Position numbers: made by a program
Shown: positions 38,701-41,700 of the stretch, in pieces
Position numbering within the stretch: position 1 is the first letter of the stretch
Layout: every line of letters starts with the position of its first letter
From: Escherichia coli
GTDB taxonomy: Bacteria; Pseudomonadota; Gammaproteobacteria; Enterobacterales; Enterobacteriaceae
Direction: 5' to 3' (one strand)
Length of the DNA stretch: 64,000 nucleotides
Assembly (NCBI RefSeq): GCF_044647545.1
Contig: NZ_CP172818.1

Positions 38701-41700
38701 GTAACGAAAAACTTGTTGCGGGGCGAGCGGTGTGTTGGCGGGAACGTCAGCAGCGTAGAGAGGAGCCGCACTTACCAGGCTGACCAGCCATAATAAATTT
38801 CGCGTATACATGGTATTCCTTACCGGAGAAATTATAAGCCCAACAACAATACGCCTGTGGCATTGTTCGCTCAAACTTATCGCGAGTGATTTGGCTCACA
38901 CTCCGGTAAAGATTCCCCATCACGCTAACGGTACATAAACATCCGTTTCCAGTCGCTGCTCTGTCATCCCTTCGGCAAGATTGGTGTAGTGAAACAGGAT
39001 CGGGGCTTTGCGCATTTTTTCGCCGCTTGCCGGAAGCCAGTGGCGAATGATGCCCCATATCGTGTGTGAAATATCGTCCAGCTCGCCAACATGGCGGGCC
39101 ACAGCATAACGTCCACCGGTAAGTTCACCATTACTTACGCCATAACGATTATCGGGGATCGGTTCGCTAACGCTGCCGCAGATATCAAAGCGAAACGCTT
39201 CTGGTGCGGTGGTGGCAGGGTCGTCCCAGGCGACGCCAAAAGTCTGGCTTTGGTTAACAGGAGAAAGCCCCGTCTCTTTACGCCACATGATAAATTTCGC
39301 CACGCTGTAGTTGAGCAACTCAGGGCTACAGCGGTGCGGCAACATCGCCACAGGGATTGATGGGAAATCGATAATATTTACATCCAGTGTCAGGTTTGTC
39401 ATTTTGCCTCCCTGCGAAATTATTCCCGGGAACGCGTCCCGGGAGCGGTAACAATTACGGATTTACTTTGCGGATCTGTTTGACGTCAATTTCAACAGAG
39501 TTCCAGTCTTTATCGACTTCACCCTGAATCTCAACCGTATCTTTCGGCGTCACCGTCACGCCGTTCCAGCGTTTGTGATCGATATCCACATTGATAGTAC
39601 CGCTGGCATCTTTGAACACGTAGAGATCGTCAGAGATGCGTTCAACGATATTGCCGCGCAGGGTTACCCAGGTGTCGTCACGCAGGGATTTTGCGCTTTC
39701 TACGGTCGTTACGCTGCCGTTCGGCCCCTGGAATCCTCCGGCCTGACTTTGTGTTGCCGATGGGCCAGAAAAACCTCCCTGCTCTGCTGCCATAACCGGT
39801 GCACTGCACAGGGCCATTACTGCGATTACTGCTGCGAATTTTTTCATGTTTATTACTCCCTTTAATGTCTGTTTCCGAGCATTTAACAAGATAGTCCTTA
39901 ACAACTTCTTAAGGGAAAAAAATAAAATTTAATGCTGTACAGAGCGCGTTACAACACGGTTTACTGGCAGCAAATACGGTTATCGCAGGGATGAAAAAAT
40001 GCGAATTTTACTGATAGAAGATGACATGCTGATTGGCGACGGCATCAAAACGGGCCTTAGTAAAATGGGTTTTAGCGTCGACTGGTTTACACAAGGTCGT
40101 CAGGGAAAAGAGGCGCTATATAGCGCACCTTATGATGCGGTGATCCTGGATTTAACCTTACCGGGCATGGATGGTCGCGATATTTTGCGCGAATGGCGAG
40201 AAAAAGGTCAGCGTGAGCCGGTATTGATCCTGACCGCGCGCGATGCGCTGGCGGAACGTGTAGAAGGGCTGCGTCTGGGAGCTGACGATTATCTGTGTAA
40301 ACCTTTTGCGTTGATAGAAGTCGCCGCCAGGCTGGAAGCTCTGATGCGCCGAACCAACGGCCAGGCCAGCAACGAGCTGCGCCACGGCAACGTCATGCTC
40401 GACCCCGGCAAACGTATCGCCACGCTGGCTGGCGAACCCTTAACGCTGAAACCAAAAGAATTTGCCCTGCTGGAATTACTGATGCGTAACGCTGGTCGGG
40501 TACTGCCGCGCAAACTGATTGAAGAGAAACTGTATACCTGGGACGAAGAGGTCACCAGTAATGCCGTTGAAGTGCATGTGCATCATCTGCGACGCAAACT
40601 CGGCAGTGATTTTATTCGTACCGTTCATGGTATTGGCTACACATTAGGTGAGAAATGAAATTTACCCAACGTCTTAGTCTGCGAGTCAGGCTGACGCTAA
40701 TCTTTTTAATTCTGGCCTCGGTGACCTGGCTGTTTTCCAGCTTTGTCGCCTGGAAACAAACAACGGATAACGTCGATGAGTTGTTCGACACCCAACTGAT
40801 GCTGTTTGCCAAACGGTTAAGTACGCTCGATCTCAACGAAATCAACGCGGCGGATCGCATGGCACAGACGCCAAATAAATTAAAACACGGTCATGTTGAT
40901 GACGATGCGCTGACCTTTGCCATCTTTACCCACGACGGCAGAATGGTCCTTAACGATGGCGATAACGGAGAAGATATTCCTTATAGCTATCAGCGGGAAG
41001 GTTTTGCTGACGGGCAACTGGTCGGTGAAGACGATCCCTGGCGTTTTGTCTGGATGACCTCACCTGATGGCAAATATCGCATCGTTGTTGGTCAGGAATG
41101 GGAATACCGTGAAGACATGGCGCTGGCGATTGTTGCCGGACAATTGATCCCGTGGCTGGTCGCACTGCCGATTATGTTAATCATCATGATGGTACTACTG
41201 GGTCGTGAACTCGCGCCGCTGAACAAACTGGCGCTGGCACTACGTATGCGTGACCCAGACTCGGAAAAACCACTAAACGCGACGGGCGTACCCAGCGAAG
41301 TGCGTCCACTGGTTGAGTCGTTGAATCAACTGTTCGCCCGCACACATGCGATGATGGTTCGTGAACGACGCTTTACCTCCGACGCAGCTCACGAACTTCG
41401 TAGCCCGTTAACGGCGCTGAAAGTGCAAACCGAAGTTGCTCAGCTCTCTGACGATGATCCGCAGGCGCGGAAAAAAGCGCTGCTCCAATTACATTCCGGG
41501 ATCGATCGTGCTACTCGTCTGGTTGATCAACTGCTCACGCTATCGCGGCTGGACTCACTGGATAACCTTCAGGACGTCGCGGAGATCCCGCTTGAAGATC
41601 TCCTGCAATCGTCGGTGATGGATATTTACCACACGGCGCAGCAGGCGAAAATTGACGTGCGACTGACACTCAATGCCCACGGCATCAAACGCACCGGACA

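What the first reader, a model, noticed from the sequence alone, without database searches (positions are those of the whole stretch)
38812..38919. mqsR-mqsA toxin-antitoxin module absent from its K-12 position between ygiS and ygiV
In K-12 the order is ygiS, mqsA, mqsR, ygiV. Here ygiS and ygiV are separated by only about 108 bp with no intervening ORF. The TA module is therefore missing at this locus, with no scar or repeat visible.
Basis: partly seen in the sequence, partly recalled or inferred. Interest (0 to 1): 0.45.

Follow-up and report, generated by a model that had tools for sequence, protein, structure and literature searches.

The report
Empty ancestral site lacking mqsRA cassette
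This E. coli strain does lack the mqsR-mqsA toxin-antitoxin genes that K-12 carries between ygiS and ygiV, but this is the ordinary, ancestral, uninserted form of the locus, which 58% of complete E. coli genomes and all five other Escherichia species examined also have.

Summary
ygiS (37204-38811, -) and ygiV (38920-39402, -) are separated by exactly 108 bp. Nothing in the 64 kb window resembles MqsR or MqsA. K-12-type genomes have ygiS-mqsA-mqsR-ygiV.

Aligning the two forms fixes the boundaries. A 927-929 bp cassette with 41% G+C (flanks are 52%) sits immediately after the ygiV stop codon. It replaces 5-7 nt (ttccc[ca], window 38913-38919). It has no target-site duplication and no terminal repeats.

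The polarity is insertion in K-12, not deletion here. E. albertii, E. whittamii and three further Escherichia species all have a collinear 108-110 bp spacer, or its ygiV-proximal part where ygiS has decayed. None has mqsRA.

Among 5,426 complete E. coli genomes:
- About 42% carry the cassette, always at 99% identity or more and essentially always at this locus.
- About 32% have the empty site with ygiS, as in this window.
- About 25% have the empty site with ygiS mostly deleted and a group II intron remnant in its place.

Variable presence of mqsRA in E. coli is already published. The verdict is real, ordinary and already known.

One side observation may deserve a look. The spacer's ygiS-sense RNA folds into a conserved, very stable hairpin that covers the ygiS ribosome-binding site. 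The cassette is inserted exactly at the foot of this hairpin.

The parts
37204..38811 (-). ygiS, an OppA-family periplasmic substrate-binding protein of 535 aa. It is intact here.
   Evidence: NCBIfam NF007287 equivalog, 1278.6 bits against a cut-off of 1098. RefSeq annotation of a 100%-identical record (H1).
38812..38919 (.). The 108-bp ygiV-ygiS intergenic spacer. This is the uninserted (empty) form of the site that holds mqsRA in K-12.
   Evidence: Sequence. Collinear with the 108-110 bp spacers of E. albertii, E. whittamii and Escherichia sp. L005. No Rfam match. No sigma-70-like promoter found by the scan.
38913..38919 (.). Insertion point. These 7 nt (ttcccca; 5 nt if the shared terminal 'ca' is counted as flank) are what the 929-bp (927-bp) mqsRA cassette replaces in K-12-type genomes. 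They lie directly after the ygiV stop codon.
   Evidence: Comparison of window 38790-38960 with L001:1990-2150 and L001:2990-3083. The outgroups have the orthologous GGGA/GGGAA here.
38920..39402 (-). ygiV, a 160-aa GyrI-like-domain protein that RefSeq annotates as an 'AraC family transcriptional regulator'.
   Evidence: ORF. Weak SbmC/GyrI-like match. RefSeq annotation of identical and near-identical records.
38817..38912 (-). Predicted long RNA hairpin on the ygiS sense strand. The outer 12-bp stem is UCUUUACCGGAG (38912-38901) paired with CUCCGGUAAGGA (38828-38817). The second arm contains the ygiS Shine-Dalgarno sequence.
   Evidence: MFE -48.3 kcal/mol, z = -4.73, 0 of 200 shuffles fold as well. 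The outer stem is kept in 5 Escherichia sequences, with only one-sided changes (C-G to U-G) and one break, and no compensatory change. A 13-nt inverted repeat was found independently in the K-12-type locus (I5).

Best explanation
The window carries the ancestral, never-inserted allele of the ygiV-ygiS intergenic region. mqsRA is a small, self-contained accessory cassette. It holds mqsR, mqsA, its own promoter/operator region with two MqsA palindromes, and terminator-like hairpins near both ends. It was acquired horizontally by one E. coli lineage and integrated by illegitimate (non-site-specific) recombination directly behind the ygiV stop codon, replacing 5-7 nt. It then spread within part of the species, presumably by vertical descent and by homologous recombination through the conserved flanks. 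This strain's lineage never received it, so ygiV and ygiS remain 108 bp apart. The functional consequence is inferred: this strain has no MqsR GCU-specific mRNA interferase and no MqsA repressor. In addition, ygiS lies directly downstream of ygiV rather than behind the mqsA terminator.
For: Shown by tool results:
- Five other Escherichia species (E. albertii, E. whittamii, Escherichia spp. L004, L005, L006) have ygiW-ygiV-ygiS-parC with no MqsR or MqsA match. Where ygiS is intact, the spacer is 108-110 bp.
- Their spacers align base for base with the window, including the GGGA(A) that the cassette replaces.
- The cassette has 41.1% G+C, against 52% for ygiS and ygiV and 51.2% for the window.
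- The cassette has no target-site duplication or terminal inverted repeats.
- The cassette is present in 2,299 of 5,426 complete genomes, at 99% identity or more in every one. 2,284 of these are at this locus. The flanks differ by 2.5-3% between the window and cassette-bearing or O157:H7 genomes.
- Nissle 1917, O157:H7 strains, APEC O2-211 and FDAARGOS_497 (100% identical to the window at this locus) have the empty site.
- mqsRA homologues at 66-73% DNA identity sit on plasmids of Rahnella, Rouxiella, Pectobacterium and Yersinia, which shows that the family is mobile.

From the literature:
- TA systems are accessory and horizontally transferred in E. coli, and are integrated in intergenic regions of the core genome (PMC7167474, PMC5120126, which cite Fiedoruk 2015 and Ramisetty & Santhosh 2016).
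- The strain NRG857c has no MqsRA (PMC7232551).
- mqsA, mqsR and ygiS are all scored as variable pan-genome genes (PMC11390585).
Against: - I could not place the window's strain and the three alleles on a core-genome tree. A history in which this lineage once had the cassette and regained the empty allele by homologous recombination cannot be excluded.
- Only the 64 kb window was available. A divergent MqsR-family module elsewhere in this genome, such as an MqsRAC-type system, cannot be excluded.
- The donor and the integration mechanism of the cassette are unknown.
Confidence: 0.85

Rival explanations
1. Secondary loss by allelic replacement. An ancestor of this strain had mqsRA, and homologous recombination with DNA from an empty-site strain, through the ygiS and ygiV flanks, restored the ancestral spacer without a scar.
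For: E. coli recombines frequently. Cassette-bearing and empty alleles coexist across the species at 42% and 57%. Close relatives of the window differ from it by whole islands while their backbone is 99.9-100% identical, which shows that flank-mediated gain or loss happens in this very region.
Against: - The 125 genomes that are 99% or more identical over 24 kb include no listed cassette-bearing record.
- The flanks are 2.5% diverged from cassette-bearing genomes.
- Nothing in the window requires this extra step.
Confidence: 0.12
2. In-situ deletion of the cassette, by precise or illegitimate excision, in this lineage.
For: Other deletions do occur at this locus, namely an IS30-mediated loss of the ygiS 5' end and the ygiV 3' end and a ygiS deletion with a group II intron remnant.
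Against: A deletion would have to recreate exactly the 5-7 nt (GGGAA on the gene strand) that the outgroups have and the K-12 type lacks. The cassette has no flanking repeats that could mediate a precise excision.
Confidence: 0.02
3. Assembly or annotation artefact, such as a collapsed region.
For: None.
Against: About 1,729 complete genomes have the same contiguous ygiS-ygiV arrangement, and one of them is 100% identical over 1,151 bp.
Confidence: 0.01

Closest known systems
The mqsRA (ygiU-ygiT, b3022-b3021) presence/absence polymorphism of E. coli, as treated in surveys of type II TA distribution (Fiedoruk et al. 2015; Ramisetty & Santhosh 2016, cited in PMC7167474 and PMC5120126)
   Same: Same locus and same phenomenon. 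mqsRA is an accessory, horizontally acquired module integrated in an intergenic region between core genes, and it is present only in part of the species.
   Different: Nothing essential. This work adds exact boundaries (a 927-929 bp cassette replacing 5-7 nt, with no target-site duplication), counts in 5,426 complete genomes, and polarity from five outgroup species. I could not read the two primary papers, so these details may already be in them.
ccdO157 between folA and apaH (Mine et al. 2009, Genetics; listed in the references of PMC7167474; content recalled from memory)
   Same: A chromosomal type II TA module sitting in a core intergenic region in some E. coli strains and absent, with a short spacer, in others.
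   Different: A different TA family and a different locus. There K-12 is the empty form, whereas here K-12 is the occupied form.
MqsRAC toxin-antitoxin-chaperone phage-defence system of E. coli C496_10 (PMC9519451, PMC10783111)
   Same: It shows that MqsR-family modules are mobile and variably present in the E. coli pan-genome.
   Different: It is a three-gene system with a SecB-like chaperone and lies at another location. It is unrelated to ygiS and is not present in the window.

Membership tests
MqsR/MqsA type II toxin-antitoxin module (is one present in the window?) | An ORF encoding an MqsR-family toxin (about 98 aa) | tested here: not met
   tblastn of K-12-type MqsR against all six frames of the window gave no hit at E <= 10.
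MqsR/MqsA type II toxin-antitoxin module (is one present in the window?) | An adjacent ORF encoding an MqsA antitoxin (about 131 aa, zinc-finger plus HTH) | tested here: not met
   The best tblastn hits have E = 1.6-7.2, are short and lie at unrelated positions. blastn of the cassette finds only chance matches of 12-15 nt.
MqsR/MqsA type II toxin-antitoxin module (is one present in the window?) | Promoter with paired MqsA operator palindromes (ACCT-N-AGGT), as at L001 2869-2885 and 2901-2917 | tested here: not met
   The palindromes are seen in the K-12-type locus (D1 and I18). They are absent from the 108-bp spacer.
Ancestral empty site of an accessory-cassette insertion polymorphism | The spacer is collinear with outgroup species that lack the cassette | tested here: met
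   E. albertii, E. whittamii and Escherichia sp. L005 have 108-110 bp spacers that align throughout. L004 and L006 align until their ygiS deletions.
Ancestral empty site of an accessory-cassette insertion polymorphism | The cassette has foreign composition and is self-contained | tested here: met
   G+C is 41% against 52% in the flanks. The cassette has its own operator palindromes, and a terminator-like hairpin at L001 3002-2984. A terminator downstream of mqsA is reported by PMC5120126 (Table 1).
Ancestral empty site of an accessory-cassette insertion polymorphism | Both alleles segregate in the species at the same chromosomal position | tested here: met
   2,284 genomes are occupied. About 1,729 are empty with ygiS. 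1,354 are empty with ygiS deleted.
Ancestral empty site of an accessory-cassette insertion polymorphism | This strain's own lineage never carried the cassette (allele mapped on a core-genome phylogeny) | not testable with these tools
   This needs whole-genome phylogeny of the source strain and allele mapping. Only the 64 kb window is available.
Transposon, integron or site-specific mobile element as vehicle of the cassette | Target-site duplication, terminal inverted repeats or an att-like repeat at the cassette ends | tested here: not met
   The repeat finder on L001:1990-3160 found no repeat pair positioned at the two junctions. 5-7 nt of the target are replaced rather than duplicated.

The most novel reading that the evidence does not exclude
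The 108-bp spacer may not be mere filler. Its ygiS-sense transcript forms a conserved stem-loop of about 96 nt (-48 kcal/mol, z = -4.7) whose 12-bp basal stem sequesters the ygiS Shine-Dalgarno sequence. This could be an undescribed cis-regulatory element: a translational insulator or processing site that silences ygiS on transcripts reading through from ygiV, or from mqsA in K-12. Its DNA form could have been the structural target at whose foot the mqsRA cassette integrated.
Probability: 0.12. Interest if true: 0.3.

Novelty: already known. Interest (0 to 1): 0.08.

Why it matters
It matters little beyond bookkeeping. It identifies the strain as one of the majority of E. coli that have no MqsRA, so K-12 phenotypes attributed to MqsR/MqsA cannot apply to it. 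Those phenotypes (biofilm, bile tolerance through ygiS mRNA cleavage, GhoT control) are themselves disputed (PMC6918082).

The locus is a clean textbook example of a chromosomal TA module as a recent, low-G+C, repeat-less insertion into a core intergenic region. It also shows that ygiS was next to the site before the TA module arrived. That argues against any co-evolved functional unit of mqsRA and ygiS.

Tried and rejected
- **Cassette remnants in the window.** tblastn and blastn found none.
- **Promoter scan of the spacer.** No sigma-70-like site. The only terminator-like hit is a weak 5-bp stem inside the larger hairpin.
- **Rfam on the spacer.** No family matched at E <= 1. Rfam on the whole window found only a Sib RNA, the FMN riboswitch and ES173.
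- **MqsR against phage genomes.** No match, so there is no evidence for a phage vehicle.
- **Terminal repeats or a target-site duplication at the cassette ends.** None found. Transposition or site-specific integration is rejected as the mechanism.
- **A recollection that MqsC of the MqsRAC system might be YgiS.** Checked and rejected: MqsC is a SecB-like chaperone from strain C496_10.
- **Rfam on the sequence that replaces ygiS in O103:H2-type genomes.** No match. BLAST identified it instead as the 3' end of a group II intron.
- **Covariation support for the spacer hairpin.** Five sequences are too similar: there were 0 compensatory pairs. The structure therefore remains a prediction.

Full report
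**1. The observation**

On the minus strand the window encodes parC (34808-37066), ygiS (37204-38811), ygiV (38920-39402) and ygiW (ORF 39455-39904; the annotated 130-aa gene is shorter). qseB (39999-40658) and qseC (40655-42004) follow on the plus strand.

ygiS matches its NCBIfam equivalog NF007287 over its full length at 1278.6 bits, against a cut-off of 1098. A RefSeq record that is 100% identical over 1,151 bp annotates the two genes as ygiS and ygiV (H1).

The ygiS start codon occupies 38811-38809 and the ygiV stop codon 38920-38922, so the spacer is exactly 38812-38919, 108 bp. The small ORFs that overlap it are off-frame shadows of the two genes. tblastn with MqsR and MqsA, and blastn with the K-12-type cassette, find nothing anywhere in the 64 kb.

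Annotated K-12-type records, including K-12 MG1655 and K-12 C3026, read ygiS-mqsA-mqsR-ygiV.

**2. Boundaries of the indel**

I read the two forms side by side. The sequences are identical up to ...cactccggtaaaga (window 38912). They are identical again from the ygiV stop codon, tca (window 38920).

Between these points the window has ttcccca. The K-12 type has 929 bp (L001:2114-3042). If the terminal 'ca' that both share is counted as flank, this becomes 927 bp in place of ttccc.

The cassette holds:
- mqsA and mqsR;
- the two MqsA operator palindromes (ACCTAAAAGGTTA, twice, D1 and I18);
- a terminator-like hairpin just downstream of ygiV (L001 3002-2984);
- at the other end, the hairpin with a T-run that RegulonDB lists as the mqsA terminator (PMC5120126, Table 1).

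Its G+C is 41.1%, against 52% for ygiS and ygiV and 51.2% for the window. No direct or inverted repeat is positioned at the two junctions, and target bases are replaced rather than duplicated. The cassette therefore did not arrive by transposition or site-specific integration. Illegitimate recombination is the simplest reading, and this is an inference.

**3. Polarity**

A scan of one genome per GTDB species with YgiV returned five non-coli Escherichia loci: E. albertii, E. whittamii, and three further GTDB species representatives — Escherichia sp. MOD1-EC7003, Escherichia sp. E1V33, and a record titled 'E. coli SCPM-O-B-8794'.

All five have ygiW-ygiV-ygiS-parC, and none has any MqsR or MqsA match. 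Where ygiS is intact, the spacer is 108-110 bp. It aligns with the window throughout, including the GGGA(A) on the gene strand that the K-12 cassette replaces.

The window therefore has the ancestral arrangement, and K-12 has a derived insertion. An in-situ deletion would have had to regenerate those bases, so that explanation is effectively excluded.

**4. Frequency**

The counts below are out of 5,426 complete RefSeq E. coli genomes.

| Allele | Genomes | Share |
|---|---|---|
| Cassette present (any match) | 2,299 | 42% |
| Cassette at this locus, with both flanks, in one place | 2,284 | 42% |
| Empty site with ygiS intact, as in the window (4,013 minus 2,284) | about 1,729 | 32% |
| Empty junction, ygiS reduced to a few dozen bases at each end | 1,354 | 25% |

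- Every cassette match is at 99% identity or more, and none is on a plasmid record of that collection.
- In the fourth allele, about 225 bp in place of ygiS are 93% identical to the 3' end of a group II intron found elsewhere.
- Rare genomes have other lesions, for example an IS30-associated deletion of the ygiS 5' end and the ygiV 3' end.
- Empty-site genomes include Nissle 1917, O157:H7 strains, APEC O2-211 and FDAARGOS_497.
- For FDAARGOS_497, a query that contained the cassette matched only the two flanks, at a single place. That chromosome therefore has no near-identical copy elsewhere (H85).
- At most 15 genomes have any cassette match that is not the full canonical locus. Relocation of mqsRA is therefore not a realistic explanation.

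The near-invariance of the cassette (99% or more), against 2.5-3% divergence of the flanks between the window and cassette-bearing or O157:H7 genomes, fits a single and fairly recent acquisition.

**5. Source of the cassette**

No phage record encodes an MqsR homologue. Plasmids of Rahnella, Rouxiella, Pectobacterium and Yersinia carry mqsRA homologues at 66-73% DNA identity. The family is therefore plasmid-mobile among Enterobacterales. The actual donor is unknown.

Of the two near-identical 'plasmid' hits, one is a 4.9-Mb record that is evidently a chromosome. The other is a 354-kb E. coli plasmid.

**6. What is known**

- Reviews state that type II TA systems belong to the E. coli accessory genome. 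None is shared by MG1655, W, EDL933 and UTI89 (PMC7167474, Fig. 1B legend).
- TA systems are described as horizontally transferred and integrated between core genes (PMC5120126, citing Fiedoruk 2015 and Ramisetty & Santhosh 2016).
- NRG857c was reported to lack MqsRA (PMC7232551).
- PCR surveys find mqsRA in roughly half of urinary isolates (PMC11059956).
- A pan-genome study scores mqsA, mqsR and ygiS as variable genes (PMC11390585).

The finding is therefore a correct re-observation of a known polymorphism. This analysis adds exact boundaries, polarity and counts. Those details may already be in the two primary papers, which I could not read.

**7. Consequences (inferred)**

This strain has no MqsR mRNA interferase and no MqsA repressor. 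Its ygiS lies directly behind ygiV rather than behind the mqsA terminator.

ygiS was at the site before the cassette arrived, and it is itself often lost: in 25% of E. coli and independently in two Escherichia species. The proposed functional link between MqsR and ygiS mRNA is already disputed (PMC6918082). It is unlikely to reflect co-evolution.

**8. Side observation**

The spacer's ygiS-sense RNA folds into a long hairpin of -48.3 kcal/mol, with z = -4.73, and 0 of 200 shuffles fold as well.

Its basal 12-bp stem pairs UCUUUACCGGAG (38912-38901) with CUCCGGUAAGGA (38828-38817). The second arm contains the ygiS Shine-Dalgarno sequence. Several G-U pairs make the structure specific to this strand.

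The stem is conserved in five Escherichia sequences, with only one-sided changes and one break, and no compensatory change. No Rfam family matches. The mqsRA cassette sits exactly at the 5' foot of this stem and leaves it intact (I5).

This could be a translational insulator against read-through transcripts, but nothing here proves function.

**9. Verdict**

- Novelty: already known.
- Interest: low.

Noticed in passing
window 38817-38912 (- strand): The ygiV-ygiS spacer RNA folds into a very stable long hairpin (-48.3 kcal/mol, z = -4.7). Its 12-bp basal stem covers the ygiS Shine-Dalgarno sequence. It is conserved across Escherichia species and has no Rfam match. The K-12 mqsRA cassette is inserted exactly at its 5' foot.
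   Followed up: partly
L002:5586-6003 (O103:H2 CEC12044); corresponds to window 37204-38790: In 1,354 of 5,426 complete E. coli genomes, ygiS is deleted except for about 40 bp at its 3' end and about 22 bp at its 5' end. It is replaced by about 225 bp that are 93% identical to the 3' end of a group II intron. These genomes keep the empty (no mqsRA) junction with ygiV.
   Followed up: partly
L004:4480-4930 and L006:3690-4140: ygiS has decayed independently, through internal deletions, in two other Escherichia species (MOD1-EC7003 and E1V33). ygiS is thus repeatedly lost across the genus.
   Followed up: partly
window 32290-32348 and 43661-43713: The closest complete genomes (Ecol_881 and others, whose backbone is 99.9-100% identical to the window) carry two islands that the window lacks. 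One is about 7.7 kb (GntR regulator, mannitol and alcohol dehydrogenases, TRAP transporter) between ygiQ and ftsP. The other is about 7.3 kb (siderophore ABC transporter, TonB-dependent receptor) between ygiN and parE. The window has the short K-12-like junctions instead.
   Followed up: partly
window 29177-30018: The 842 bp between yqhH and ygiQ have no counterpart in the closest genomes, which have 1.36 kb with two hypothetical genes there. This is a variable segment that I did not characterise.
   Followed up: no
window 58463-58615 (- strand): There is a single Sib RNA / ibs type I toxin-antitoxin repeat between yqiK and hldE. Only 1,325 of 5,426 genomes match the single-copy arrangement end to end. 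Most genomes, including K-12-type ones, match only from query position 157, which is consistent with the extra tandem copy (sibD plus sibE) that I recall in K-12.
   Followed up: partly
L003:3764-6101 (strain MB20): A rare allele in which an IS30 element replaces the ygiS 5' part, the spacer and the ygiV 3' part. This is another independent lesion at the same locus.
   Followed up: no
window 54909-55057 (-) and 26608-26671 (+): An FMN riboswitch lies upstream of the ORF at 54152-54805 (ribB by position, recalled from memory). An ES173 sRNA was found by Rfam at gathering threshold. Both are ordinary E. coli features.
   Followed up: no
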